Below are positions 2,549-48,474 of a stretch of 64,000 bases of DNA, one piece after another (the first letter of the stretch is position 1; the number at the start of each line of letters is the position of its first letter). The notes under the pieces are model-generated. The model was not told the origin of the DNA and searched no databases. It saw only the letters and a program-made list of their open reading frames with translations. The stretch is from Trypanosoma brucei (Eukaryota): contig CM000208.1 of assembly GCA_000002445.1 (NCBI GenBank), positions 1,056,001 through 1,120,000 of the forward strand, in the 5' to 3' direction. Made by a program: the position numbers and the translations under genes.

Positions 2549-4597
2549 TTATCCAGCAAATGCAGCCGGTGCCGCCGAGCTGCTTACAAGACCTTTGGTG
2601 AAGTCCACGGTAAAGTCACCCATCTCAAGTCGAGCTGCGTCCAAGAACACATCAATATGGTACTTCCCCGCTCTTCGCTTCAACACTGGCCCATCCACAC
2701 TAACAGCCACACTACCGTCCGCATTCCTCTTTGATGATTGCTTCACGAAAAGTGGATGGCGCTGGCCAAGCGAGAGATGCACACCGAACTGGCGCTCGAA
2801 GGCCGTCACATCACTCACCACACGATCTCTCCCAAGGTAGGGGCTAAGGCCGATACCCAACTCACGCACATAACAACTTCCCTCCGTCTGACGCACAAGT
2901 TCAATAAGTTCAACCAACTCGTCAGGGGCATCGGGAGAAATATCGGTGACGACACCTTTCACAATCGTCAGTGTCGCGGGTTTCGGTTGAGCCATCGTCA
3001 CTGCCTTGGATAAACTAGGGTATGCAAAGACATCGCAGGTACCGTTTAGTTTACTAAGGTCAAACGATTCACTTATAACCTCACCAACAGGAAACGTCCC
3101 ACCAATGCTACTGCCAACACACGCACCTGCGACGTTACTTCCATCAGTGCCACTAGCGCGAACAACATCCTCCTCACATGAATGAGAGAGACCACACTTT
3201 GTCGAGTCTTTCGCGCCCTTCAACTTTAGCATTGCCAAATACTCCTTTTTCTTTAAGCGTCCATGTCTCCCAGTATCACCCACGCCATCCATTGGAAGCA
3301 GGGTAGCAGCAGCGGCTTCCTCCGCCCCCGCGGTGGCCGCATTCTCCCCTTGGTTTGAAGGTTCTGCATGGTGCACAGCAAAGCGTAGACGATGATTTTG
3401 TACCATGTTACGCTCCGACGCGTGAGCGGCAGCATAATAACCGGTATTTAGCAAGCAATCCTCCATCCCCCCATCGTAGGTGAGTACCTGGCCAGTACAA
3501 CAAATAATGCGAAGTGGGGCTCCGGGGCCAGTGATGAAACTTGTTTCCGGGACAACGGATCCGTCAGTACCGCCGTCTCCTTCACCATCGAGTGCTCTCC
3601 CCTTCCACGTGAGTACACCTGAACTGTACAAAGACCAAAGACCTTCATTCGACAACGCCGACTGAAATGATGCTGGTGGCACCACCTGCAGTGGCCGGCA
3701 GTCATTCCCTTCCCCATTCTCTTCCTTCCTGCTAATCTTCCGGGACCAGCTCCAGACGTCAATGGAATCAGCTATGGCCCGACCAATAGCCTCAGCCACA
3801 TCCGGTTTGAAGGAACATGACCGCATGTAATGCACAAGTTCGTCGTTATCCAAGCAACAATTTGTGTCATCCGAGATGCTATCGCCGTCGCACTTGCTGG
3901 CTAAGACATCATCTGCCGAGGCACTCATTATCTCCAAGTGATTATGCTCAGCCACACGTAGGCCCATGTTGAAAAGATCAAGCCGCAGACGGTATTTATC
4001 CAGTTCATTTTGGAAGGCGTTGCGCTGAATAAGAATACAACCAAGTAACTCACGATCCGATCCGTTGCACAACCTCTCAAAGAGTGGATCCTCCCACTCC
4101 ATTTCGCCCCGCTCCTCAGGTGTCAACAACCATGACAGAGAGTCAAACATTTGCCTCATCTTCTCCCGCGCCTTCACACTGCCGTCAGCATCACCAGTCA
4201 CACTTTCAGAAGAAGCTTTATCAGATGGGTGACCACACAGTCTAAGAAAAGCCTGCAAGGTTCGCACATCATCCAAAAAACGGTCAGCTTTGAAAGGTAA
4301 CACGCCATACGTAACCCTCCAGTTGCTTTTGAACCCCTTAGAAAAGCACGGAGTTTTAGCTGAAGAATGGAGACCGACGCGAAGTGGCCCAACAACATTC
4401 GGTGCCTCAGGCGCCTCTCCGTTGAAGCGATTCAGTTCCTGAATGTACCCCTCCAGTAGAACTTTCTGTAGAGTACATGGAGTGTGGTCCACTACAAGTA
4501 GCACATGTGGGGTAGCACCCTGAAATGCGTCTATGCGGAGACTCTGCCACAGAATTGTATTAGCACAGCTTCGTGCCGCCTGAAGTGCTGATGACAT
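2549..4597 (-). CDS. hypothetical protein (682 aa), no family recognised
   Basis: Long uninterrupted ORF with an ATG start, in the same orientation as its neighbours. The minus-strand polypyrimidine tract upstream (plus 4598-4913 is purine-rich) is consistent with trans-splicing. Confidence 0.6.
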   Translation of the reverse strand: MSSALQAARSCANTILWQSLRIDAFQGATPHVLLVVDHTPCTLQKVLLEGYIQELNRFNGEAPEAPNVVGPLRVGLHSSAKTPCFSKGFKSNWRVTYGVLPFKADRFLDDVRTLQAFLRLCGHPSDKASSESVTGDADGSVKAREKMRQMFDSLSWLLTPEERGEMEWEDPLFERLCNGSDRELLGCILIQRNAFQNELDKYRLRLDLFNMGLRVAEHNHLEIMSASADDVLASKCDGDSISDDTNCCLDNDELVHYMRSCSFKPDVAEAIGRAIADSIDVWSWSRKISRKEENGEGNDCRPLQVVPPASFQSALSNEGLWSLYSSGVLTWKGRALDGEGDGGTDGSVVPETSFITGPGAPLRIICCTGQVLTYDGGMEDCLLNTGYYAAAHASERNMVQNHRLRFAVHHAEPSNQGENAATAGAEEAAAATLLPMDGVGDTGRHGRLKKKEYLAMLKLKGAKDSTKCGLSHSCEEDVVRASGTDGSNVAGACVGSSIGGTFPVGEVISESFDLSKLNGTCDVFAYPSLSKAVTMAQPKPATLTIVKGVVTDISPDAPDELVELIELVRQTEGSCYVRELGIGLSPYLGRDRVVSDVTAFERQFGVHLSLGQRHPLFVKQSSKRNADGSVAVSVDGPVLKRRAGKYHIDVFLDAARLEMGDFTVDFTKGLVSSSAAPAAFAG

Positions 4598-4913
4598 GTG
4601 ACTTTACCTCACCTTTTTCACCCTTCACCAAACTTATCAATTAAAAATGTGTTCTCCCCACCTCACTTAATGCTAAATACTTCAGTGTATTAGAAAGGAA
4701 CAGCAGTGAGAATATCGATCGCGTCGTCGAGAGCAACCGTCTAAATCAGTTAACTAACAGTAACATGCATAGGCGAGAGGTAAGTTGATTGGGTGACGTT
4801 AGCGTAAACACCGCAGCAGTTGTACAACACCCCGGTGCGTAATCCCCAAACCCCCATACAACAGCGTATGCATGCGGGGGGAGGGGAACCAAGAAAAAAA
4901 AAACACAACTTCC

Positions 4914-5603
4914 TCACCATAGACGCCACCATATCGGATAATGACTGGATAAGTCGTATGGGAGTCCATGAGACTTCTGTAACTGTTGTGCACGCCTATA
5001 GAAGTGGCGGTGTGCCACATGACTTCGCTCCTCGTAAATGGTGTGACCAACACCCGCCCCAGCGGCACACCGGGCTAAAACAACGATATTTGCCGAGGCC
5101 GGGACCGGTACCTGATAAACGTTCTGAGAACCAAAGACCCGTTGGCACATCTGCACAAAGTCGGGATCGGATTTGGGAAGGTTAAACGCTGCAACGCCGA
5201 TCGAGGAGAGTGCCTCGCGGCACAACTGAAGAAAAATAAGGGACGACATGAAGGCGGGTGGATCGCTCCCGACAAAAAGATCCACAAAAAGCACGTCGTA
5301 ACACGTCGCCGGTTGTACTTGGTATCGGGACAGCGGCTTATGCTGGTTTCCGTTAGTGGGATAATCACCACCTTTGAAACTCACAGAAGTTCCAGAATGC
5401 GTGCGGCTAGAAACCAATTCATCAAAGGTACTATTACTCTCCCCAGTGCCAGTTGAAGATCCAACAACATCCTGAAGGAAGGCGGCACCGTCCTGAACAT
5501 GACAGGTGACACTCCCGCCTTGCATTTTCCTTCCCCATCCCATGTCTTCAACTGCAGCCCGAAAGCACTGTTGCTCAGCATCAACTAAGTCGCATAATGT
5601 CAT
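4914..5603 (-). CDS. C-terminal portion of a split class-I SAM-dependent methyltransferase / spermidine-synthase-like gene
   Basis: 229-aa ORF. Contains DLVDAE, then ...CHVQDGAAFLQD..., then YDVLFVDLF...LCREAL. These resemble Rossmann-MTase motifs II-IV of spermidine synthase-like proteins. Its ATG overlaps the stop of the upstream ORF (ATGA). Confidence 0.45.
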   Translation of the reverse strand: MTLCDLVDAEQQCFRAAVEDMGWGRKMQGGSVTCHVQDGAAFLQDVVGSSTGTGESNSTFDELVSSRTHSGTSVSFKGGDYPTNGNQHKPLSRYQVQPATCYDVLFVDLFVGSDPPAFMSSLIFLQLCREALSSIGVAAFNLPKSDPDFVQMCQRVFGSQNVYQVPVPASANIVVLARCAAGAGVGHTIYEERSHVAHRHFYRRAQQLQKSHGLPYDLSSHYPIWWRLW

Positions 5604-6463
5604 GTGAGAAATGCTGCTGCGATGAAAGAAGGAGAGAACCCTCCACCAACACCGAGGACAGCGACCCGCAGCCGAGGTAGCGGAGAGGGAAGTAGCAGCA
5701 GAGCACTAAGCATGATGCGCAGATATGGCGCACCTAAATAACTGGCGTCAGCGAGGCAGTTCATTGAGGCCGGTGCCAAGGGGTCGCAGCGAACAAGCGA
5801 TTGTTGCGTGACTCGGTTGCTCCAGCGTCGCAACAAAGCGTCACTGTCATTTCGTACCTCATTATGTGACGTCTCAATAGTCATGGAGGTATATTTAACT
5901 GTACCCGGGGGCCAAGAGGAGGAAGCGATGAACATTGAAGAGCCCACACGATTACCGACGGTATCTTCAACAGCGTCATCATCATCACCGTTGAAGCCCT
6001 TGACGCTACGGGTGGAGACGTCACCGCGAGGTGCGTGTGCATCACCCACAACTTCCCTCACAAGATACAACTCGTTGACCTCTGATACTGAATCACTGTG
6101 GCCAGCAGTGGTGTATGTTTCATTTGAAAAACATGCAAACAGCTTTTTCATGACCCCTCCTCTATCACTGCGTCCACAATTTCCATTTTCGGCATCACTA
6201 CCGCGTGGCAGCAATGATTGTTCCCCTCGCCCCTTTTCCCGGACATAATGATTTGTTACAACAACATCATAACCCAAGAAGGTTTTGCAGGGGTACCGCG
6301 CATGCTCCTCCGAGTGCACAACATCCGCCTCATTAAAGAGTGGAATTTCTCTCTGCCGCAGCAGCGCAATTTCCCGGAAAATACCGATAGCAAATGTACC
6401 ACCAACGCTCGCTGCAATAAACCCCCATGCACGAGCTCCCAGTGGTTTAAAAAAATAGGGCAT
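5600..6463 (-). CDS. N-terminal portion of the same split methyltransferase-like gene (ends in a GxGGG motif-I-like segment)
   Basis: 287-aa ORF ending ...LRVAVLGVGGGFSPSFIAAAFLT*, a motif I-like glycine loop. The stop codon shares the ATGA tetranucleotide with the next ORF's ATG, and there is no intergenic spacer for trans-splicing. Confidence 0.45.
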   Translation of the reverse strand: MPYFFKPLGARAWGFIAASVGGTFAIGIFREIALLRQREIPLFNEADVVHSEEHARYPCKTFLGYDVVVTNHYVREKGRGEQSLLPRGSDAENGNCGRSDRGGVMKKLFACFSNETYTTAGHSDSVSEVNELYLVREVVGDAHAPRGDVSTRSVKGFNGDDDDAVEDTVGNRVGSSMFIASSSWPPGTVKYTSMTIETSHNEVRNDSDALLRRWSNRVTQQSLVRCDPLAPASMNCLADASYLGAPYLRIMLSALLLLPSPLPRLRVAVLGVGGGFSPSFIAAAFLT

Positions 6464-6895
6464 ATTGCCCTCCGGGAGATGTCGCCTAACTTTTCAAAAG
6501 AAAAAAATAGAGGAGCGGAAGTAAATATATGACGGCGCATGTGCAGAGGAAGTTGTACGTAATTCAACTGATGCGGATAACACAAGAGAAAAACATAGGT
6601 TAGTAACACCAACAGAAGCTTACAAACAACACGGCGATAGATGAAGAAGAGATGGAAGAAGGGAAGAAGGGAAGGAGGAAAAACAAAAACAAAAACGCCG
6701 CCGCACCGGCGTCAACAAAACCTAAATAAACAAGGGGGAAAACGTTTTAGCACCGACTGCACCAAATCCAAAACACATCAGTCGCCTTGTCCACTTCCAA
6801 CAAGGCCTTCCACCGAGTAAATCAATTTACGTTCCTTAGACTGAAATGCATGGTTTCTCTTCTCACTACTTTTGGTCACTGTTGCATTTAACCAA

Positions 6896-7942
6896 TTACA
6901 TGACTTTTTTACCCCTCTCTGATTCCTTTGTCGACGTTTCGTTCGGCTTCTCGTCATCCTTACGGACTCGCCACACGATGTTGTAATGCAGTTTTGAGAG
7001 CACCGCCATGGCTAAACGTAGCCAACCGTTAAGAAGAACTTGCAGAAGAAGCTCCAGCACATCAGTGGCCGGTTCCACACCCGCAACCATCCAACAAAGC
7101 AATTGCTTGTCAACACCCAAGCTTACGTCAAAACGATAGTGTTTGATGCTGTCGACAATTTGTTTTGCCATATCCAATGCGGTAACAGGTTCATCGCCAC
7201 CGAAGGAAGAAAGCGCAGTGCATTCCGGACTTTTTCGAATATTCTCCTGCTCGAAGCCGGGCGTGTAGACATCAGGTGGACTAATCACCTGGAACCGGAC
7301 GCCACGGCAGCTGTTTTCCATATCCATGCTGTGGGCAAAGGCCCGAATAGCAGCCTTTGATGCGGCATAAACGGAATACCCGGCAAGTGGGCAGCGGGCC
7401 GCAAGGCTGCTCACAAATACAACGCGTCCGGCACGTTGCTCAAGCATGGAGGGCAGAACCATGCGCAAAACATTTACACAACCGAAAAAATTGACATCCA
7501 TCATCCTTCGTGCCTCTGCAGGAGTAATGTCCACAAACCGAGCGGGAATAGAGAAACCTGCATTGCATACGAGAAGATCAAGACATTTCCCCCCAGCAGC
7601 AGTAACATCCTTCGACACTTTATCCATCGCTTGCTCCACTGAAACCTCATCGGCGACGTCCATAACGACGTATTCCACTTTCGTACCGGTTACTTTGGCC
7701 TCTACTCGAAGTGCCTCAACACCGGCCCTCAGCGACTGTTCATTTCTCGCGGCAATTATTACAACTCGTGCGCCCAGTTTGACGAGTTGCTTCGCCGTTT
7801 CCAAACCGATGCCCAAACTCCCACCAGTTACCAACGCACAGCAACCCTTTATGTGGAAGAAAGGCACTCGATGTACACTCCACCAGGCAGCAGCAAACAC
7901 CAGCGCAATCAGCAGCGCACACACAAGAAATATAACTCCCAT
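6896..7942 (-). CDS. short-chain dehydrogenase/reductase; 3-ketodihydrosphingosine (3-dehydrosphinganine) reductase-like
   Basis: 348 aa with an N-terminal TM segment. Glycine-rich NAD(P) loop ALVTGGSLGIGLE. Catalytic YxxxK (YAASKAAIRAF). PPDVYTPGFEQEN closely resembles the KDSR/TSC10 PPDTDTPGFAEEN segment. The hydrophobic C-terminus matches KDSR. Confidence 0.65.
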   Translation of the reverse strand: MGVIFLVCALLIALVFAAAWWSVHRVPFFHIKGCCALVTGGSLGIGLETAKQLVKLGARVVIIAARNEQSLRAGVEALRVEAKVTGTKVEYVVMDVADEVSVEQAMDKVSKDVTAAGGKCLDLLVCNAGFSIPARFVDITPAEARRMMDVNFFGCVNVLRMVLPSMLEQRAGRVVFVSSLAARCPLAGYSVYAASKAAIRAFAHSMDMENSCRGVRFQVISPPDVYTPGFEQENIRKSPECTALSSFGGDEPVTALDMAKQIVDSIKHYRFDVSLGVDKQLLCWMVAGVEPATDVLELLLQVLLNGWLRLAMAVLSKLHYNIVWRVRKDDEKPNETSTKESERGKKVM

Positions 7943-10900
7943 GGCAGCGACTCAAATAGGCGATGATGCTGGAAGTGGGAAGTACTAGGAAAAAAGGAAA
8001 ATAAAATAAAATAAACTTGGAACAGATAATAAATGCAAGCCTCCTAATAACCTAAATGGAATGCGCAATAGTTTCTTCGTTGGGTTTTAACCCGGCTCCT
8101 AATCTATGGGTATACAAAGGAAGCATGGTAGAAGGCAAACGGTGCAGGGCACACTCGACAAGAGAAATATATATATTTCTTTAAAAAAAAGAAAAGAGGA
8201 GGTGCGTACGTCTCTCTGATCAGAAAATAAAGTCAAAGTCGTGAGAAGATGTGAAAGATGAGTGGGTAAACACCTCCATCACATTCGCTTCGATGAGGAA
8301 TAAACAAGGAAGCAGTAAGGGGTGCAAAAGAGGGAGCAAAAACTAAAAGGGAGAAAGTGATGAAAGAAATGATGGAAGTTGTCCAGAAACACTGGCTGAG
8401 CTACAAAACAGTGGTTTCCAGATGATTAAATCCGGCTCGTATTTATTTATTTTTTTTCCTTGGTTCCGTTTCGTTTCGTTTGGTTTTGTTCCCTTTTCTC
8501 TTTTCTTTCTCTTTTCTTTTCTTTTCTTCAATTTCCCTCCTTTACTCTCTCCCCCCCCCATACTCCTTCAACTCAGTTATTTCCTCTCTACCATTCTCTT
8601 CACTTACGTGCTAATGCCGAACTAAATACAGGCATACACTGAGAGAAGAAAAGGAACGGAGTAATGAAGGGGCCGTGAAAGAAAGGAAGAAATAAAAGAA
8701 AAATAAAAGAAAGAAAGAACAAAAACTTTGCCTTCGCTCCGAGTAAAACAAAAACGTAATGGCAAAAGTTATCGAACAAAAAAAAAAACTCCCCTACACT
8801 CCTCTACAGCAGTGGTGAATAAGATACGCACCACACAAACACACAAAAAAAAACCATATATACTCATTTGTGCGAATCGTTACATCATGCAAACACTTCC
8901 TCATTGTATTTTGTACTTGTGCATTTGCTGTTATTGTCTCTTGTTTTTTCCTCTCGTTTTTCTGCTTTTCTTTTTCTTTTCCTTTTGTTTTGTTTTGTTC
9001 CTTTTCTTTTTTTTTTATTTTCTCAACCTGTCACCTTTCTACCAGTCTGCAGTCATCGATGATGTTAACAATTTCTGTCTCCCCATTGCGTTGGTCATCT
9101 CCCACGCACAAGTAACATCACCAACACATTTTTTCAGATGTGTACACCATTGAGTTTCACGACAAATTTGAAAAAAAAAATTGGAAAGAAGTCAAACATA
9201 AATAAGGTCAGAACTTTTTTTAAAAAAAAAAGCTAAAAAGAATAAAAAGAAAAGTATGAAGGAAGCCACAATACATACAACCTCGCACAAAACACGCACG
9301 AAGAAGGGAAAAGAAATAATCAAAAAAAAAAGAAGGGCGCAGGCAAAAACAAACGTTGTCAAACCTCCAGAGGCAGGTAGGAAAATATACGGTGGTAGCC
9401 GAATTAACGAAACCAGTAAAACAATACTGGTCCTCAATTTTAAAAAAAAATTATAATGATAATGATAAAAACAGTAGATATAACATCAAAACCAAGAGAA
9501 AGGAAGAAAAAAAAAAGAAGAATAAACATGTAAAACTCTCATTACACAAAATACGGCGGGTCCCAAGAGTTCCTGCCCTAATAGCCTGCTTAATTGTAAC
9601 ACCACATTCATTCCTCTCATTTGTGTACGTGCATCTGCTTTCACTTAAGTCAGGCAATCGCTTCTCTGCCAGTGTGAAGATGATAATTAATAATAATAAA
9701 TAATAATAACTGGAATCAGTATTAGCACTATTGGTAATAGAATATGCGTGACATCATATTCCTATTTCACGCTAGCGCCCCAATATCTCATACTACTTTA
9801 TATAGTTGCCGCTACTAGTCACTACTAATTATTATCATTATTATTGTAGCACTTCACTCTTATACTGACTCTTTCCTCCTTTTTCCCGCTCTCTTTCTTC
9901 AATACGTCCCTCTAGCTTCTCCTCTTCTTTTTGGGTTTTCATTCATTTTTTTTATTTTTTCGTTTTGATGGGGATGATTTTAAACCTTTAAAACATACAC
10001 ACACACACACCACAAACTACTTGTTCGTCACCAACCATTTATATTTTTTTTTTCCAACCATTGGACAAATCACTATGCGCTGCTGCCATTATGCTAATAA
10101 ATGCTTTACCTTTTACTCATTGCTCAGTTTGTTCGCTTGTTTCTTTGTTTGTACTCATTTTACTTTTGTTGTTGTTATTTTATTTTCATTTTTTTTTTCC
10201 TCCACTCGAGGTCTACCTTCACTTTTCACCCTTTTTGTTAATCCCTAAACACAAATAAAAGGCAAGGAGAGCAGAAATCAACACCAAATATTTTCTTTTC
10301 AAAAAAAAAACAAAAAAGAAAGACCTCCTTTACTCCTACATAATATTTTCTCTTCACATTCATTTGGATCTCCTTTCATTTTCTCTTCTGTCACCGCACT
10401 TCCTTTTTTTCTTTTCCTTCTTCTAACATTGAATTGTTTCGATCCAGTTTTTTTTTTTTAAATATTTTCATGAGATAATACAACACGATATATCTCTTTT
10501 AATATACGAATATGAAATTGCTCACTTTTTGTGCTTTTCCCCATTCTATGCACTTCATTTTTATTACGCATTCATAAATGCACACACAAAAGTGTCGTAT
10601 TCCGCCCTCAGCGACACATGCGGTTACAACAGCGGCGGTCAAAAGGAAGAAAAAGTAAAAGTAAAGTAAAAAAAAAAAACGAAATCACACAAAAACAAAT
10701 GCCAGCATAAACCCCCGCAGATATAAATTTATACAAGTTAAGAAAAAAAAAAGAATGCAGACGACCTGGAAAGTTTAAAAAAAAAACATTCCTTCAGATG
10801 CGGTTCAGAACACGAGAGGAAAAGGAGAAAGGGAGGAATGAGACACACACAAACAGCAACAAAAGAGAAAATAATAGAGTAAAAGAATAAATTGAAAAGT

Positions 10901-12219
10901 CCTACTGCCGTCCACACAAAGTAATGTGGTGAAAGGATCCCTAAAAGCAAACAAGTGTTTTGTAAAGTCACCCATGGAAAAGTGATACAACAACAAGTGA
11001 AGGTAACAAACCTTCACAGCCCCAACACAACATGGAACTCAGGAACAGTAGAGCAAAAAAAAGAAAAAGAAAAAAGAAAAAAGAAAGAAAATGCCTTAAA
11101 GCGTCGGAACAAACAAACTAAAGTGTGGTATCACCTCACCGTTCAAGTTGTTGCTGTGGCCGTACGCTCCCAACATGTCTTTCCTTTCCCCTTCTCTCTA
11201 ATGTGATCCATCTATCCCCATTCTCCGTTCCACACACACACAAGAAAAAAAAGAAAAAAACGCCACCAAAAAAAAGCCTCCCACCCCTTCCCCCCCCCCC
11301 GCCTCCGGGAACTTCATCGCTAAATAATAAAATACCGCTGCGGACTCTACTGACAAAGTGGGGAACCGGCTGCTTAAGAACTGCACCATTTCTTGACCAT
11401 TTTTTTTTTCCTTTGAACTCTGTTGTTTTGTTTCCATCTCCTGGGATTGTCGAAAAAACGGGAGCGAATACATGGCATATGAAATATTGAAGCGAATATA
11501 TTTATATATTTTATATATGGCAAGAGCATTGAGGTAATGTAAGAAGGTGATTAATTAGAAGGAAAAAGAAAACAAAGAAACAAACACACGTGTACGAAGC
11601 ACCACAGTCGCGCCTTCCTATAGCCCCAGATCCCAGTCCCCACCCAATTCACACAGTTCCTTCTTATCGTACTCTACATTAAATGAAATAAATAAACAAA
11701 TAAAACGAACCGCATACATCCCTTTGTCCTTTTTGAGGCCGTTTATTTAAATCCATACCCCCGAGTACCTCCAAAACAGGGTGTCCTCATATCCCCCTCA
11801 CAGCAAGCGAACATATATAAAGATAGATGAAGGTAAATACATTATTGATATAGCGCTTACGTAACTCGGGACGGCACTTTTGTCCAAATGCACCTCCCTC
11901 TCGTATGGTGTCGGAGATGGAAAGTGTTTGAGAAGGAGAGAAGAAAAAAAAAAGAAAAAAAAGATCCCGCATTACATTTAAGGATTTTAATGTGCTACTA
12001 CCACCGCGTTCACCAGGGAGAGGAAGGGAAAACGGTGTAAAATCGTACAACAAGGGGAGGAATACACAAAAACGGTACAAATCAAACAAATGGGAGACGG
12101 AAGGGAGTGGGAAGTCTAAGGGGATAAATTATATATATATATATATACCCTCGCAACCACGCCATAACTAATACGGAAAGAAAAAAGGAGGAAGAGCGCA
12201 ACGCATGCTGCTATTATTA

Positions 12220-13893
12220 TTACTCCTCGCCCTGCGGGGGCACGGTGCTGGGCAAAAACTGTATGTTGGTTTCCTTCTTTATTTGATCCATAACGTCCAA
12301 CGCGAACTGCAAATCAGCGCGGGTGTGAGCAGCAGAAACACAGAAACGAATGCGGCACCCCAGTAGTGGAGTAGCGGGGTATCCAACAATCACAATAGCA
12401 AGACCACGGCGCATGCATTTCCTCCACACGGCAATTGCTCTCCCAAGATGGTAAAGCATTACGGGAACGACGGGGGAGGCGTCATTACCAAGGACAGAGA
12501 AACCACGATCGATCAAGCCCTGGCGGAAAAATCGTGAATTTTCCATCAGTTGCTGTATGTGCTTGGGTCCAATGTCGGTGCCATCATTACCGTTTAGGAC
12601 GTCAAGCACAGAGAGAGCCTGCTGAGCACAGGGAGGAGAAAGCGTATCGCAGTGAAGCGCTAGAGAGCTGTGAGTTCGGATGTGGTCAATTACGCTCTGG
12701 TCCCCAGCAAGATAACCGCCAATAGCCCCGAAGCTCTTGGTGAAAGTCCCCATGAGAATATCCACGTCACGCGGGTCCACACCGAAGTGCTCCGTTACGC
12801 CACGCCCCGTACGACCAGTTGCACCAATAGAGTGAGCCTCATCGACAAAGAGCAGGGCACCGTACTTTTTCTTAAGTTCAACAACACGAGGAAGATTAAC
12901 AAACTCTCCCTCCATACTATAGACACCCTCAACGACGATGACAATGCGGGTCCATGGCACGTATGCGCCCTTTGGATTCTGCCCGAGCACAACCGCCTCA
13001 CGGAGCACCTTCTCCAGGCTGTTCATGTCAGCATTCTTGAATACCTTGGCGCGGGCACCAGATAACCGTATGCCGTTAACGAGCGAAGAGTGGTTCAAGC
13101 TATCGCTGACCACAAGTGTATCCTCACCAAACAATGCAGGAAGACCACGAAAGTTTGTGCCGAAGCCCATCCCACACACAACAGCGTCCTCCTTCTTTAA
13201 AAAGTCTGCTATGGCACGCTCAAGTTTAGAAACTGGACCATGCTGACCAGCGTGTTGGGCGGCGCTGCATGAAGCAAGACCATAGCGATCTAAGCTGTTA
13301 AGCACCTCACGAGTAATATGGGGTATATCATCCGCAAACCCAAGGTAGTTGTATGACGAAAGGTTAACGCATGGTTTGATATTTCCAGTGAAGGAAAAAG
13401 TTCTATTGGAGTCCGTCGAAACCCGCTCCATCACACCAATCACACGAGACGGACGTGAGTCAATCGCATGGTTGAAGCAGTCACGCGCACGGCGGTAGAA
13501 ATGATTCTGCCAGAAATATTCGAGGAAAGTAAGCAGAGATGCATATCCCTCACGCTGCTTCCTTTTTGCGCCAAATAACTTCCGGCGAAGCTCGGCAATG
13601 CATCCAAAAGTGAATAAAAGTAAAAACGTGAAGTATGTCATTACCACAGAAATAAATGGAATGCTTTTGTGCTCCTCCTCCTGGTGCGTCACCCGCTTCG
13701 GCTGAGTATGCGTCCCCACACTTTCCTTTTGACATATCGTGTCCGTTGCACCATTTGCTGCAAAACTCGCCCGAACCGAACCTTGTTTATTGTACGCCTC
13801 GTCACAAGACTCGGCTTCAGTTACTGCCTTGTTCGCAACAACGGCACCCCGAGGTGCGTCTAAGAAATTCTCCGCCTCCACGTAAGTAGGCAT
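12220..13893 (-). CDS. SPT2: serine palmitoyltransferase subunit 2 (LCB2), PLP-dependent alpha-oxoamine synthase
   Basis: 557 aa with an N-terminal TM helix. PLP-lysine motif GTFTKSFGAIGGY. Conserved SMEGE, LFVDEAHSIG, GYPATPLLGCRIRFCVSAAHT. Confidence 0.8.
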   Translation of the reverse strand: MPTYVEAENFLDAPRGAVVANKAVTEAESCDEAYNKQGSVRASFAANGATDTICQKESVGTHTQPKRVTHQEEEHKSIPFISVVMTYFTFLLLFTFGCIAELRRKLFGAKRKQREGYASLLTFLEYFWQNHFYRRARDCFNHAIDSRPSRVIGVMERVSTDSNRTFSFTGNIKPCVNLSSYNYLGFADDIPHITREVLNSLDRYGLASCSAAQHAGQHGPVSKLERAIADFLKKEDAVVCGMGFGTNFRGLPALFGEDTLVVSDSLNHSSLVNGIRLSGARAKVFKNADMNSLEKVLREAVVLGQNPKGAYVPWTRIVIVVEGVYSMEGEFVNLPRVVELKKKYGALLFVDEAHSIGATGRTGRGVTEHFGVDPRDVDILMGTFTKSFGAIGGYLAGDQSVIDHIRTHSSLALHCDTLSPPCAQQALSVLDVLNGNDGTDIGPKHIQQLMENSRFFRQGLIDRGFSVLGNDASPVVPVMLYHLGRAIAVWRKCMRRGLAIVIVGYPATPLLGCRIRFCVSAAHTRADLQFALDVMDQIKKETNIQFLPSTVPPQGEE

Positions 13894-44000: not shown

Positions 44001-47000
44001 AGCCACAGATAACGTAATGAAATTGATAATCACTGGCACAGATAAGAAATTCCCAAGGGGAAACAGTACCCTCCTAACCTGCAAACACTGACAAGTGCTC
44101 TTTGTGTCGCTCACCTACTCTTCAATATCAAGTTAACATCAATAAAATATGTAACATACGAAGCGTCGGGACCGAAAGTCAAATATATATATATATATAT
44201 TATCATTATTATAACAGTGTTAATTATGCCAGAAACACTGCATCCCTCGAAAATTTGCAACCGAGTAGCGGAGTTTTCAAGAACGAAAAATCTAATAACA
44301 GTTTCACACAAAAAAATCATAACAACGTATCATACAAAACAATCAAGAAATAAAAGAAAACAACATTCATTTCGTTAAAGTTTGCTTTGGTGATTAATAT
44401 ATTAACAATGGAGTAAATGAAACTGTACATCGAAATAAACCCCACCATTTATGGGTGAACGATAAGTCTACTCATCAAAACATAATAACCAATGCCTCAG
44501 GGTTGGGTAAGTACAATATATACTTTCACACCTCCTCACCGGGGACTGAATGAACTAAACGATCGTTACTCCATCCCACCTTCACGTAACAGCCAAACGG
44601 AAATTCATCGGCATAAGCTAAAGCTGTTATTGCTAACGTGGAGCCTGCAGATAGCAAATCAACCGCTAAAACCCCAAAAAGATCACCGTCAGATAAGGCC
44701 TAACACAAGACCATACCATGCCTGCGGAGCACGTGTTCGAAAGTAGATGACAGCTACATTTTCTAAACCACCTGATATCTACATACATGACATCGTCCAC
44801 ATTCACATGCACGAAAAATGATCAGCGACAACACGGTCCCAACAGCGCGGAACCAAAGGCCCAAAGATGTCTAACAGGAAAAAAGGTTTATTACGGTCAA
44901 AAGAAGCAAGACAATACTGGTGAAAAAATAGGGCGTGACATCAATCCTACAAACGTATAAATATCGAGGCGGCACCTTTAAGCAATAAAAGGGTGGCTTC
45001 GGTGAAAATACACATCATTGTTTCGCCGGACAAACATGCTAACTTAGCACGCACACGCGCTCATACACACATAGGCATGTCGGCCCAGTATAAACAAGCA
45101 GACATCGGTTGTTCCGGGTAAAATGTTTATAATCAAATATGAAAAAAAATAAACGAAACATGGAAAGGAGGGTCCTGAGATAAAATTCGTCTCAACAAAG
45201 ACCCATCCACCAAGCTCCCGAATGCACTATGTAACAGAGTTACTCTAGTTACCGGCACGCGTGCTTACACGAATGTTACGTCCATCCTTTTGAGTAGTTA
45301 CTCACAAAGAAGACGACACCTCCACAGCACCCAGCCGGGAAATAACGGGGTCAAGATAAATAGAGATGCTTAATTTTGAGCGGGCATGAGTATGATCACA
45401 AAAACAATCCGTTAGCGCATTTTCAAATAGCAAACGTCCGTAAGGGCGCAACGAAGCCGTTGGCAGCAGTCAACAGCACATATGCATTTATAAATCTCCG
45501 AAAATAGAGGAATTACATCAACTAGGCCCATTTTGACAGACACAGTGGACCACGCGCTTGGCCGCCAGCTAACAAACGAGCGATAGGCAGCATTCTTTTG
45601 ACTTCCCATTCTTCCACCAGGGCCTCTGGCGGCGCCCGCCCACATGAAAGTTGGATGCCACGGCAACTATATCCTACGAGGTTGAACTCCCCGCAATGCA
45701 GCGAGTCTTGTAGGAGCGAACCCCCAGTAAGGTCCACGGTTCGTAGAACAACTGCTCTCCCTATTCATTTGACATTCGTTCCACTCCGCCCACGTCAATG
45801 AACGACAAAAGGTAGCCTCTGACATTGCTCAAATGACAAGAACAATTCTTTAGTGTTTTTTTTCTGAGAACATACACCACGCTAAATTTTTCTTTTTAAG
45901 TGCTTCATACACGAACTTGCCACTTTTGGCGAAATAGTACAACGGAGCCTCAACGATGGTTCCACAAATTTTTTTAAAAAATGGGCAAAAAAAAAATGTC
46001 AACAAGATGACGGCCAAATACACGAAAATGAGTGAGCCGCTTCCACGGGCACAGACAAACAAGCTGCCAGAAAGGAACAGAAGTCAGCCGCCCAGCCGAA
46101 CCTCCTCCACATCACCCAGACACTTTTTTGAGGCGGCTGCACTGCACGACCTAGAGTCCGCCCTGGTCTACAGTCGAAAGATGTACGGGGCAGCGCCAAA
46201 CCCTTGCCAACATTAATGACTACTGAAATGCGGGGAAACCTTCCGGCCGGTACGAGAGCGTGTCCCCAGGAGATTATTCATAGGGACAAAGTGGACTTCT
46301 GCCTTTTTCAGGGAGACACGCACGAGGGTCAGAGGAAGCACCCTGTCAAACGACCATGGTCACCGGTTCATTGGTTCTGAGTGCCCCAAAACGAACAATT
46401 GCGACGGGTCAGTGCCCGTTTGGGATGGAGTCGCCGCGCAGTTGAGATAGCTGAGACGGGTCAGGCTTTGGACGGCATGGTCGCTACGCAGTGCTCCCAA
46501 ACAATCAGCAGCCAGTTGTGACATCTGTCTCCTTCCCCCAAGGTCCCGGAAATTCGTAGGGAAAGTTCAGGGTGACTTTTCGAGAACCAAGACACGGAAA
46601 TAATCACAGCAGCGGCAAAACTTCACCACGCTGCCAGAGATTCCCCCGTTCCGGGACATGCAGACAGCAAGCCGATAGCAGATTGATGACTAGAACAGGG
46701 CTTTGCGGTTGGCGGCAACGGGCCCCGAACCGGACTGAAATAAGTATAAGTCTGCGCCTTTCCCATGGAATTTATCCCCTTTTTTTTCCACTGCGAGACG
46801 ACGGCGAGCCAAAATCGGGTGAACCCTGGACCGCGCTAACAACCAGATCATATTCTGTTTAACGGTCAGGGGCGCTGCTAAAGAAAAGGATTGTGTATTA
46901 TGAACGCCAAATGACCCCGTCCCCGCGGGTGTAGTGAAGGAGAAAAGCGAAATGGCAAATGCCCCTGAGCAAAGTGCGGTTGAGGCAAAGAAAAAGGGCT

Positions 47001-48474
47001 TTAAAGGGCAGCGAAGAATTGAAACAGACACTTCGATATCACTGCGTTTGCTATTCTCGTAGCGCTGGGAAAATCAATTCCAAAAGAGAGCTGTTGCGGC
47101 ACGGCCTGAACACCAAACCTCACTTCCGTCGGAGGGAGAATAGGGCAGTGTGCAAAATCGGAGATGCGACGCCCGTCGCGTGGAGGAGGGCCTTAGCTTA
47201 AACAGATGAATAAGGATAAAGAGATGGAGGCTTCCACAATATTCGGATGAGGGAAGAGCAGTTGGGTGCTGAATCAGATCCCCGGGAGACCCCCGCCGGC
47301 TGCAGGCGCTAAGATTACCCGCGGTAACACGCTGAAAAAGCGGCTACGGGAACGAGTGTTGGTGAATATACATGAGAACCTTTTCAGGAAGATACCAGCA
47401 ACTCTGCGAATCTTAATCCCCAGTACCACGAGTTATCAACTTCGGTGGTGCGCGACCGCTATGCGGGAGAACGGTGGGGTGCTTCACAGGTGCGTCGGGA
47501 CAAAAGGACACGGAGCTTGCTCTGTGACAGAGGCAACGGAGACGACCCCGGAACGATACGGTGTTCTCCCGCGGTTTCCACCCCTTTTCTTTCATATTAA
47601 AACTCCTGTGGCGGAAACCCCTGCGGGACCGAGGTCACAAAAGTCGCTGCCTTTTTTACTGGGAACAAAACACAAGGAAACGGTTAGTGGCGTAAAGTTT
47701 CGGTCCACGGAGTCGGAAATGTCCGGAAAAAAACGCACGCATAGGAGTCCAACCGTTGTGTGAGGAAGGTTCTGATTTGGGTGAAGTATCCACGGAATGC
47801 AAGAGCGAACCCTCCACGCTCATTGCTGGTTGTGGTGTTCTGCGGCGACATGCTGTCCAGCGCGTAATCCAGGCGAAAGACTTGCGAGTGTGAATACGAT
47901 GGCACCGCACAACGATTTTTCTCAACTTCATCTTCGTGAATTCGGTTGTGCTCTAAAGGAAATATCACATATTGCACTCTAGAGTATCGGAAGGGCCGCA
48001 GCGCGTCACGACCCAACGGGTGTGCTTAGTATCAGGGGGCGAACTAAGTGCAGCTGAGCCGTGCCTTGAAAAGTTAGTTCCCATACCTGGTTTAAAAACA
48101 GGAGTGTAAACATCCGCAGCGCGTTGTTTCGCTGTAGAGTATCGTGTGGGAGGTAGTTTAGCGACTTTGATTTGCCCCTTTTAAAAAACATTACGTTTAA
48201 TATTTTCAAATCTACTTTTGAATACCGAATTGTTGTTTTTCATCACTCACCTAATGTGGCATGGGAGTAATTCACATGATGTGACCCTACAAGGCGATCA
48301 AGATCTTTACAATAATAGCAATAATAATAATAGATTGTATGTGCCGTTATACTGTCATCCCTATCTCATTATCAACCGGTCTTGTGTTGATGTATGGTAC
48401 AACGAACCTCGGAAGTTTCCCTATAGTTTAACTACCACTTGCGATTGATATCCTCATCTTATTCTGCTTTAGTC
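44001..48474. other. divergent strand-switch region between the minus polycistron (ends with the phosphatase gene) and the plus polycistron (starts at 48475); probable RNA pol II transcription start zone
   Basis: Coding strand flips here. No ORF >170 aa on either strand over about 4.4 kb. Confidence 0.6.

What the first reader, a model, noticed from the sequence alone, without database searches (positions are those of the whole stretch)
4914..6463. A Rossmann-fold methyltransferase / spermidine-synthase-like gene split into two frames at an ATGA junction
The upstream minus-strand ORF (5600-6463) ends ...LRVAVLGVGGGFSPSFIAAAFLT*, a motif I-type glycine loop. The next ORF (4914-5603) starts 1 nt out of frame and continues about 17 residues later with DLVDAE (motif II acidic residue), then CHVQDGAAFL and YDVLFVDLF. 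That spacing is what one continuous spermidine-synthase/SAM-MTase fold would show. The two ORFs share the ATGA tetranucleotide, so there is no spacer for a polypyrimidine tract or trans-splice site between them. Independent genes in a kinetoplastid polycistron need such a spacer. The downstream frame also stays open for at least 19 codons upstream of its ATG. This points to one gene of about 516 aa broken by a 1-nt frameshift. The cause could be a genuine pseudogene or strain polymorphism, a sequencing/assembly indel, or less likely programmed frameshifting.
Basis: partly seen in the sequence, partly recalled or inferred. Interest (0 to 1): 0.6.

Follow-up and report, generated by a model that had tools for sequence, protein, structure and literature searches.

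The report
One methyltransferase gene split in two
Two adjacent reading frames in the Trypanosoma brucei TREU927 reference (Tb927.10.4030 and Tb927.10.4020) are halves of one conserved 517-residue methyltransferase-like gene, broken by a 108-base patch of clustered discrepancies that is most likely a reference-sequence error, so the finding is real but ordinary.

Summary
On the minus strand, ORF 5600-6463 (287 aa, exactly XP_822651.1, Tb927.10.4030) and ORF 4914-5603 (229 aa; annotated from an internal ATG as Tb927.10.4020) overlap in ATGA. Every relative has one gene: 517 aa in T. b. gambiense, T. equiperdum and T. b. equiperdum, one merged gene in T. evansi, and 450-630 aa in other trypanosomatids. 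A family profile and an AlphaFold model place the protein in the spermidine-synthase fold, closest to the METTL13 C-terminal methyltransferase domain. The break falls between strand b1 (GVGGG) and strand b2 (DLVD), so neither ORF holds a complete fold.

The "single 1-nt frameshift" is wrong. TREU927 differs from six T. brucei-group sequences at 17 alignment columns confined to window 5530-5637. These comprise a compensated +T/-T pair, an uncompensated +A, an uncompensated 5-nt deletion, and five mismatches in 8 nt; the net change is -4 nt. Only 3 differences occur in the other 3,447 aligned columns against T. equiperdum OVI.

Such clustering does not fit pseudogene decay or programmed frameshifting. 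The most likely cause is a poor-quality stretch in the Sanger reference (about 0.78). A genuine strain-specific lesion is not excluded (about 0.2). Interest is low.

The parts
4914..6463 (-). The whole disrupted gene (Tb927.10.4030 + Tb927.10.4020). It is the orthologue of single 517-aa proteins in T. b. gambiense DAL972, T. equiperdum OVI and T. b. equiperdum, and of TevSTIB805.10.4290.
5600..6463 (-). ORF1, 287 aa, identical to XP_822651.1 (Tb10.70.3250 / Tb927.10.4030). Residues 1-275 are authentic and differ from T. equiperdum OVI only at H122 (Y in OVI). Residues 276-287 (FSPSFIAAAFLT, 5603-5638) are mostly frame-shift products.
4914..5603 (-). ORF2, 229 aa from the ATG in the ATGA overlap. 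The public annotation starts at the internal ATG at 5543 (209 aa, XP_822650.1, Tb927.10.4020). From DLVDAE onward it matches residues 293-517 of the intact protein, except GWGRK in place of GMRKK.
5530..5637 (.). Patch of TREU927-only discrepancies: 17 differing alignment columns against six other T. brucei-group sequences, net -4 nt. Sub-cluster 5621-5637: +T, -T, A>T, +A, T>C. At 5588: loss of GGACC. Sub-cluster 5530-5537: five mismatches in 8 nt (GAATGCGCAAGA becomes GATGGGGAAGGA).
   Evidence: Three of the indels are listed independently for T. evansi reads at Tb927_10_v5:1062525/1062537/1062541.
5587..5622 (-). Remnant of the ancestral reading frame in the third frame. It encodes SQQHFSHDIMRL (helix aA and the start of strand b2 in the intact protein) and runs into a stop after the 5-nt deletion.
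5600..5603 (-). ATGA overlap of the ORF1 stop and the ORF2 start.
5639..5653 (-). Motif I glycine loop GVGGG (residues 271-275; G271 and G273-G275 are invariant across 25 family members). It ends strand b1 of the Rossmann fold.
5574..5591 (-). DLVDAE, strand b2 with the post-I acidic residue (L294, V295 and E298 are invariant).
5265..5300 (-). YDVLFVDLFVGS, strand b4 / motif IV with invariant D391, F394, V395, D396, F398 and G400. It aligns with the DVI..D motif of spermidine synthases.
6359..6436 (-). Hydrophobic N-terminal helix (residues 10-35/37), a predicted membrane anchor or targeting helix.
   Evidence: model only
6495..6695 (-). Upstream polypyrimidine tracts (6639-6695 and 6495-6521), each followed by AG. 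They are candidate spliced-leader acceptor signals for the whole gene.
   Evidence: sequence pattern only; not shown to be used
4876..4903 (-). Polypyrimidine tract directly after the ORF2 stop, the candidate splice/polyadenylation signal region shared with the next gene (682-aa ORF, 2549-4597).
   Evidence: sequence pattern only

Best explanation
Window 4914-6463 (minus strand) is one gene. It encodes a 517-residue protein conserved across trypanosomatids. The model shows an N-terminal hydrophobic helix, a beta-sheet domain and a Rossmann domain of the spermidine-synthase fold. The closest solved relative is the C-terminal N-methyltransferase domain of human METTL13.

In the TREU927 reference sequence the gene is cut into Tb927.10.4030 and Tb927.10.4020 by a 108-nt patch (5530-5637). 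The patch has intermittent extra, missing and miscalled bases and a net change of -4 nt. It lies exactly on the most conserved segment, GVGGG-SLPSFLQQHFSHDIMRL-DLVDAE.

The most likely origin is a low-quality stretch of the original Sanger consensus. On that reading the split is an artefact of the reference and its annotation, and the real TREU927 gene is intact.

Shown: there is one ancestral gene, the break falls inside the fold, and the differences are clustered. Inferred: the patch is an error rather than a mutation. Also inferred: the intact protein uses SAM rather than decarboxylated SAM, because its motif I is GxGGGSLP as in METTL13 and lacks the GGGDG aspartate of aminopropyltransferases. 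The role of that aspartate is from my own knowledge of the spermidine synthase literature.
For: (1) All relatives have a single gene.
(2) At nucleotide level TREU927 differs from T. equiperdum OVI at 20 aligned columns in 3,555, and 17 of them lie within 108 nt. The binomial P is 1.7e-23, and the expected number from the background rate is 0.09.
(3) Outside the patch the TREU927 protein equals the OVI protein except at H122 (Y in OVI).
(4) The differences look like slips of register. Two sub-clusters return to frame within 5-12 nt, and they sit in a pyrimidine run and a purine run.
(5) The six comparison sequences are identical to one another across the patch, although they fall into two haplotype groups elsewhere.
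(6) T. evansi reads show the same three indels, near-homozygous at 88-96% of reads.
(7) Discrepancies between the Sanger reference and Illumina reads of TREU927 itself are documented: 58 homozygous coding indels (PMC4288722).
(8) Another TREU927 gene pair, Tb927.2.5860/5870, is documented as wrongly split (PMC8445201).
(9) The exact 209-aa TREU927 ORF2 product, which carries the patch-specific GWGRK, is recorded only from the reference itself. ORF1 has no contig record at all.
(10) Fold: family profile against 5WCJ, E=8.7e-11. In the model, b1 spans 265-270, aA 276-284 and b2 289-296, with pLDDT above 90 in the core. Foldseek ranks 5WCJ first (TM 0.75 on the target), followed by spermidine synthases.
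Against: No read-level data for TREU927 could be inspected. The one table that would decide the question (S5 of PMC4288722) is stored truncated before chromosome 10. Chromosome 10 was a finished sequence, and the patch persisted at least to assembly version 5. There is no error-density gradient of the kind a single read end would produce. No paper in the searchable library mentions these two gene identifiers, so nobody has reported a correction.
Confidence: 0.78

Rival explanations
1. The lesion is genuine and specific to TREU927. A single complex mutational event (error-prone repair, or a short conversion tract from a diverged donor) hit one or both alleles. Tb927.10.4030/4020 would then be a very recent unitary pseudogene or a heterozygous null allele.
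For: The sequence is what the public reference holds, and it persisted through assembly version 5. The reference records only one allele at heterozygous loci (PMC4288722). Between T. brucei haplotype groups the gene shows more non-synonymous than synonymous differences (8-9 against 5-6), so constraint on parts of it is not tight.
Against: Seventeen changes in 108 nt, with only one nucleotide difference from OVI in the rest of the coding sequence, is not how decay looks. No second copy of the TREU927-specific strings exists in the 64-kb window that could serve as a donor. The family is single-copy in every species found. Neither version forms a hairpin or quasi-palindrome that could template the changes (z about 0). 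The patch hits invariant residues (L277, plus the near-invariant L281, Q282, F285 and D293), while all non-synonymous differences between the intact alleles lie outside residues 198-317.
Confidence: 0.2
2. The gene is expressed despite the break, either by programmed ribosomal frameshifting or RNA-level correction, or as two separately translated polypeptides that reassemble into a split enzyme.
For: The ATGA overlap resembles the termination-reinitiation arrangements known in other systems. A polypyrimidine tract plus AG lies just upstream of the second ATG.
Against: Restoring the ancestral protein would need two separate shifts (+1, then -5 or +1). The five-base GGACC deletion removes sequence that no frameshift can restore. 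No relative has any shift at this site. U-insertion/deletion editing in kinetoplastids acts on mitochondrial transcripts, not on nuclear chromosome 10 genes (established knowledge), and it could not restore GGACC. As written, ORF1 ends after strand b1 and ORF2 lacks the glycine loop, and helix aA is destroyed in both.
Confidence: 0.02

Closest known systems
Tb927.2.5860 / Tb927.2.5870, a T. brucei gene reported as wrongly split in the TREU927 assembly (Cosentino et al. 2021, PMC8445201)
   Same: Both are two contiguous TREU927 gene models that align end to end with one gene in other T. brucei-group genomes (compared).
   Different: That case was supported by a long-read Lister 427 assembly and by TrypTag localisation. 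For Tb927.10.4030/4020 I found no such published check. Here the cause is visible at base level as a 108-nt patch of clustered discrepancies.
Human METTL13 C-terminal domain (MT13-C; PDB 5WCJ). From my own knowledge, this is the domain that methylates the alpha-amino group at the eEF1A N-terminus.
   Same: It is the best sequence-profile hit (E=8.7e-11), with motif I GxGGGSLPxF matching almost residue for residue, then the post-I D/E and the following helix. It is also the best structural hit (Foldseek E=8e-10, TM 0.75 on the target).
   Different: Sequence identity is only about 20%. The trypanosomatid protein has an N-terminal hydrophobic helix and about 220 extra N-terminal residues instead of the MT13-N methyltransferase domain. 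It also has long low-confidence inserts. The substrate is unknown.
Spermidine synthase / polyamine aminopropyltransferase (SpeE; Pfam PF01564; NCBIfam PRK04457; e.g. T. cruzi 4YUV, Synechococcus 6QMM)
   Same: Both have the two-domain fold of an N-terminal beta sheet plus a Rossmann domain. There are weak sequence hits (6QMM E=0.0036; PRK04457 E=2.8e-12). Distant relatives of the family pass the PF01564 threshold. UniRef names several orthologues 'Spermidine synthase'.
   Different: There is no PF01564 hit even at E<=1. The PRK04457 score is 46 bits against a cut-off of 304. Motif I is GVGGGSLP, without the aspartate of GGGDGG. It is therefore probably not an aminopropyltransferase.
Intact orthologues: T. 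b. gambiense DAL972 XP_011777681.1, T. equiperdum OVI XP_067081715.1, T. b. equiperdum RHW69779.1, T. evansi TevSTIB805.10.4290
   Same: They occupy the same locus with the same neighbours: a KDSR-like dehydrogenase upstream, then a 682-aa ORF and an enoyl-CoA hydratase downstream. Outside the patch the coding sequence is 99-100% identical.
   Different: They have one uninterrupted 1,554-nt ORF. The TREU927 reference has 1,550 nt in two ORFs.

Membership tests
Wrongly split gene caused by reference-sequence error | Close relatives carry one uninterrupted ORF covering both gene models | tested here: met
   517-aa single proteins in three T. brucei-group genomes and three Logan assemblies, one merged gene in T. 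evansi, and single proteins in all other trypanosomatids
Wrongly split gene caused by reference-sequence error | Discrepancies are locally clustered and register-slipping, with the rest of the gene essentially identical to relatives | tested here: met
   17 of 20 differing columns lie within 108 of 3,555 nt, P=1.7e-23. There are two compensated indel pairs. Outside the patch there is one amino-acid difference.
Wrongly split gene caused by reference-sequence error | Independent reads from the same strain contradict the reference | not testable with these tools
   S5 Table of PMC4288722 (TREU927 Illumina reads against the reference) is stored truncated before chromosome 10. No TREU927-derived contigs are in the contig collection.
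Unitary pseudogene undergoing decay | Disabling and neutral changes scattered along the gene | tested here: not met
   All disabling changes lie in 5530-5637. Elsewhere the coding sequence differs from T. equiperdum OVI by one nucleotide.
Programmed ribosomal frameshift | A single shift site, conserved in relatives, that restores the full protein | tested here: not met
   Relatives have no shift. TREU927 would need two shifts and lacks five bases of coding sequence. The bridging frame ends in a stop.
Spermidine synthase / aminopropyltransferase (PF01564, PRK04457) | Score above the curated threshold of the family model | tested here: not met
   No PF01564 hit at E<=1 for the halves or for six intact orthologues. 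PRK04457 scores 46-51 bits against a cut-off of 304.
Spermidine synthase / aminopropyltransferase (PF01564, PRK04457) | N-terminal beta-sheet domain plus Rossmann domain | tested here: met
   The AlphaFold model has strands at 48-75 and 188-198 plus a seven-stranded Rossmann core. Foldseek alignments to spermidine synthases cover 240-370 columns. The evidence is from a model only.
Spermidine synthase / aminopropyltransferase (PF01564, PRK04457) | GGGDG(G) loop with the aspartate that favours decarboxylated SAM (role of the aspartate: from my own knowledge) | tested here: not met
   The family motif is GVGGGSLP with no acidic residue. In the alignment to 6QMM the aspartate column holds glycine.
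METTL13 C-terminal-domain-like methyltransferases | Significant profile similarity and a shared motif I (GxGGGSLPxF) and post-I acidic strand | tested here: met
   5WCJ E=8.7e-11. vLGvGGGsLplFLqqyf aligns with VVGLGGGSLPLFVHDHF, and LVdvEp aligns with AVEIDP.
METTL13 C-terminal-domain-like methyltransferases | Closest solved structure | tested here: met
   Foldseek rank 1, E=8.1e-10, TM 0.75 normalised to the target
METTL13 C-terminal-domain-like methyltransferases | Dual-domain METTL13 architecture (N-terminal class I methyltransferase domain plus C-terminal domain) | tested here: not met
   The N-terminal 250 residues are a hydrophobic helix plus a beta domain with no Pfam methyltransferase hit. 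One distant relative, P0106, does have that architecture.
METTL13 C-terminal-domain-like methyltransferases | SAM-dependent methylation of a protein N-terminus | not testable with these tools
   No biochemical data were found for any family member.

The most novel reading that the evidence does not exclude
TREU927 really carries, on one or both haplotypes, a single clustered complex lesion (17 changed positions in 108 nt). The lesion would knock out a membrane-anchored METTL13-like methyltransferase conserved across trypanosomatids. That would be a natural null allele in a fully tsetse-transmissible reference strain, and an example of localised hypermutation in a core chromosomal gene.
Probability: 0.15. 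Interest if true: 0.35.

Novelty: already known. Interest (0 to 1): 0.12.

Why it matters
The main consequence is housekeeping. Tb927.10.4030 and Tb927.10.4020 should be treated as one gene. TREU927 gene models are the keys for most T. brucei functional genomics (tagging, RNAi screens, proteomics). C-terminal tags on Tb927.10.4030, N-terminal tags on Tb927.10.4020, and peptide searches across the junction would all mislead.

The intact protein belongs to an uncharacterised family. About 30 representative clusters match at E<=1e-30, most of them over most of the profile length. The family has a METTL13-like catalytic domain, a predicted membrane anchor and no known substrate. That is a modest lead in its own right, but it is not what the finding was about.

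Tried and rejected
- Pfam scans of the two halves and of six intact orthologues gave nothing for the family. The fold had to be reached by a profile search against PDB sequences, by structure prediction and by NCBIfam.
- I looked for independent TREU927-type DNA by exact-protein look-up of ORF1, of the upstream dehydrogenase and of the downstream 682-aa ORF. ORF1 and the 682-aa ORF are not on record, and the dehydrogenase is recorded only in T. equiperdum OVI.
- The 90% protein cluster holds no Lister 427 sequence and no repaired TREU927 sequence.
- Full-text searches for Tb10.70.3250/3240 and Tb927.10.4020/4030/4040 returned no papers.
- The T. b. gambiense genome paper, the pseudogene survey, the ILRA preprint, the 2026 pangenome preprint and the held supplements of Cosentino et al. 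say nothing about this locus.
- S5 Table of the T. evansi paper would decide the question, but the stored copy stops before chromosome 10.
- I tested whether a hairpin or quasi-palindrome could have templated the changes or caused gel compression. Neither version folds better than its shuffles.
- I searched the 64-kb window for a donor copy of the TREU927-specific strings and found none.
- I checked the three Logan contigs for spliced-leader sequence, to count acceptor sites, and found none.
- Rejected ideas: mosaic collapse of two haplotypes (the two known haplotype groups are identical across the patch), RNA editing, and programmed frameshifting (see rival explanations).
Full report
**What is in the sequence**

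On the minus strand, ORF 5600-6463 (287 aa) ends ...LRVAVLGVGGGFSPSFIAAAFLT*. ORF 4914-5603 (229 aa) begins MTLCDLVDAEQQCFRAAVEDMGWGRK.... The stop of the first ORF and the start of the second share ATGA at 5600-5603. The second frame is open for 34 codons upstream of its ATG.

**Identity of the locus**

- The 287-aa product is exactly XP_822651.1 (Tb10.70.3250) of T. brucei brucei TREU927.
- The public annotation of the second ORF is XP_822650.1, 209 aa, starting at the internal ATG at 5543.
- Supplementary tables of the T. evansi genome paper (PMC4288722) give the current names. Tb927.10.4020 lies at Tb927_10_v5:1061818-1062447(-), and Tb927.10.4030 is upstream of it.
- The window coordinate therefore equals the chromosome 10 coordinate minus 1,056,904.
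- The neighbours are an enoyl-CoA hydratase (1208-2041), a 682-aa ORF with no Pfam hit (2549-4597), a KDSR-like short-chain dehydrogenase (6896-7942) and a serine-palmitoyltransferase-like aminotransferase (12220-13893).

**One gene, not two**

A search with the conceptual fusion found 28 protein clusters, and most of them span both halves as one protein. These include:
- 517 aa in T. equiperdum
- 504 aa in T. congolense
- 452-490 aa in T. cruzi, T. rangeli, T. theileri and related species
- about 500-630 aa in Leishmania, Leptomonas and Phytomonas

The 90% cluster contains three intact 517-aa proteins (T. b. gambiense DAL972, T. equiperdum OVI, T. b. equiperdum) and the two TREU927 fragments. 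The same gene order surrounds the intact genes. T. evansi STIB805 has one merged gene, TevSTIB805.10.4290.

**What the protein is**

- Pfam finds nothing in the halves or in six intact orthologues, even at E<=1.
- A profile of 26 family members hits the C-terminal methyltransferase domain of human METTL13 (PDB 5WCJ) at E=8.7e-11. The match runs over profile positions 239-325, the stretch that crosses the TREU927 junction. vLGvGGGsLplFLqqyf aligns with VVGLGGGSLPLFVHDHF, and LVdvEp aligns with AVEIDP. Weaker hits to spermidine synthases cover the b4 motif.
- An AlphaFold model of the intact T. equiperdum protein has mean pLDDT 69, and above 90 in the core. It shows an N-terminal helix (10-37), a beta domain and a Rossmann fold. 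Strand b1 spans 265-270, helix aA 276-284, b2 289-296, b3 318-324, b4 390-395, b5 420-430, b6 450-454 and b7 461-466.
- Foldseek against the PDB ranks 5WCJ first (E=8e-10, TM 0.75 on the target). Dozens of spermidine synthases follow.
- NCBIfam PRK04457 (polyamine aminopropyltransferase) is hit at E about 1e-12, but at 46-51 bits against a cut-off of 304.
- An exhaustive profile search found 31 representative clusters at E<=1e-30, most of them matching over most of the profile. A long tail of about 260-300-aa proteins matches only the Rossmann part. Five of the six tail members tested (lengths 264-970 aa) pass the PF01564 threshold, and one has a METTL13-like two-domain layout.

The family is closer to METTL13-C than to true aminopropyltransferases. 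Motif I is GVGGGSLP, with no aspartate. From my own knowledge of spermidine synthases, that argues for SAM rather than decarboxylated SAM as cofactor. This step is an inference.

In TREU927, ORF1 carries everything up to b1 and the glycine loop, and ORF2 carries b2-b7. Helix aA exists only as a remnant in the third frame.

**The lesion is not a 1-nt frameshift**

I aligned the TREU927 coding sequence with six others: T. b. gambiense DAL972, three Logan assemblies, T. b. equiperdum and T. equiperdum OVI. There are 17 columns where TREU927 stands alone, all between window 5530 and 5637.

- **5621-5637:** GGGTCTCTTCCATCTTTC-TTGCAG becomes GGGTTCTCTCCTTCTTTCATCGCAG. That is +T, then -T four bases later, A>T, +A and T>C.
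- **5588:** GGACC is missing (CGACTGGACCTAGTT becomes CGACTTAGTT).
- **5530-5537:** GGGAATGCGCAAGAAAATG becomes GGGATGGGGAAGGAAAATG. This is five mismatches in 8 nt, or equivalently -A, two C>G and +G.

The net change is +1 -5 = -4 nt, which moves the frame from 0 to 2.

- The first indel pair is compensated and only changes SL to FS.
- The +A moves the ancestral reading into the third frame, where SQQHFSHDIMRL is still readable (5587-5622).
- The 5-nt loss moves it on to the ORF2 frame, where GAC TTA GTT GAT happens to read DLVD again.
- The last sub-cluster turns GMRKK into GWGRK.

Three of these indels are listed independently for T. evansi reads against Tb927_10_v5, at 1062525, 1062537 and 1062541. 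They are annotated Ile281fs, Pro278fs and Phe276fs, at 88-96% of reads.

**How unusual the clustering is**

- Against T. equiperdum OVI, 3,555 aligned columns contain 20 differing columns. Seventeen of them lie in the 108-nt patch.
- The background rate predicts 0.09 differences there. The binomial P is 1.7e-23.
- Outside the patch the TREU927 protein equals the OVI protein except at H122 (Y in OVI).
- The other T. brucei-group sequences fall into two haplotype groups that differ at 14 codons, yet they are identical between residues 198 and 317.
- Across 25 family members the patch covers the best-conserved block of the protein. G271, G273-275, L277, F280, L294, V295 and E298 are invariant.

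**Interpretation**

Ordinary pseudogene decay is excluded, because changes would be scattered along the gene.

Programmed frameshifting is excluded. Relatives have no shift, two shifts would be needed, and five coding bases are absent. Kinetoplastid U-editing does not act on nuclear transcripts and could not restore GGACC.

Collapse of two haplotypes is unlikely, because the known haplotypes do not differ in the patch.

That leaves an error patch in the Sanger-era consensus, or one genuine complex mutation in TREU927. I favour the error for five reasons:
1. The changes look like slips of register that recover within a few bases.
2. They sit in a pyrimidine run and a purine run.
3. I found no donor copy in the 64-kb window and no templating hairpin.
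4. The T. evansi paper reports 58 homozygous coding indels and 814 homozygous non-synonymous SNPs between TREU927 Illumina reads and the reference.
5. Cosentino et al. document another TREU927 pair, Tb927.2.5860/5870, as wrongly split.

I could not see TREU927 reads. The table that would settle the question is stored truncated before chromosome 10, so a genuine lesion keeps about 0.2.

A 20-nt polypyrimidine tract followed by AG lies at 5619-5638, inside ORF1 and just upstream of the second ATG. A similar tract, interrupted by one A and followed by AG, is visible at the same place in the intact orthologues, inside one ORF. It is therefore not evidence for two genes. It does show that "no room for an acceptor" is not a strict argument. 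The other polypyrimidine tracts in the scanned interval lie upstream of 6463 (6639-6695, 6495-6521), directly after the stop (4876-4903), or in the intergenic regions of the neighbouring genes. That fits one transcript, but it is pattern evidence only.

**Novelty and score**

The gene is annotated intact in sister genomes. Part of the discrepancy already sits in a published supplementary table. Wrongly split TREU927 genes are a documented class. I found no text that names this pair as such, so the practical output is an annotation correction. Interest is 0.12. The most novel reading still open is a true clustered null allele in TREU927 (probability about 0.15, interest 0.35 if true).

Noticed in passing
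window 7943-12219: A 4.3-kb stretch between the KDSR-like gene and the serine-palmitoyltransferase-like gene has no ORF of 200 aa or more on either strand and only 36-37% G+C. Against T. b. gambiense, nearly all of the indels in the 7.5 kb compared fall in the part of this stretch that the alignment covers (7996-9463). It is presumably a very long UTR or intergenic region.
   Followed up: partly
window 44114-48439: Long ORFs lie on the minus strand up to about 44.1 kb and on the plus strand from about 48.4 kb, and the GC skew changes sign near 46 kb. This looks like a divergent strand-switch region between two polycistronic units.
   Followed up: no
window 5543 versus 5603: The public model of Tb927.10.4020 starts at the internal ATG (MGWGRK..., 209 aa), not at the ATG in the ATGA overlap. 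That start codon lies inside the third discrepancy sub-cluster, and the intact protein has no start there.
   Followed up: yes
window 5619-5638: A 20-nt polypyrimidine tract followed by AG lies inside the coding sequence, about 15 nt upstream of the ORF2 ATG. A similar tract is also present in the intact orthologues.
   Followed up: partly
L004 3' end (corresponds to window about 4790): The Logan contig ERR7929162_1225 leaves the genomic sequence and ends in AAAA about 125 nt after the stop codon. This could be a poly(A) site, in which case these contigs are transcripts that cover the whole 517-aa ORF as one RNA. No spliced-leader sequence was found at their 5' ends.
   Followed up: partly
window 2549-4597: The downstream 682-aa ORF (Tb927.10.4010 by position) has no Pfam hit at E<=0.001. 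Its exact sequence is not on record in the contig collection.
   Followed up: no
window 5530-5545 and 5615-5637 (and L006 1835-1842 / 1932-1939): The first and third discrepancy sub-clusters are partly complementary to each other in both versions: TTTCTTGC/GCAAGAAA in the intact sequence, and TCCTTC..CATC/GATG..GAAGGA in TREU927. This is probably chance between a pyrimidine run and a purine run. Overall folding energy is no better than for shuffles.
   Followed up: partly
L001, L005 and L006 coding sequences: The two T. brucei-group haplotype groups of this gene differ at 8-9 non-synonymous and 5-6 synonymous codons. Most of the non-synonymous changes fall in low-confidence segments of the model (residues 79-129, 179, 369). 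The exception is A418E, which lies in a confident helix.
   Followed up: partly
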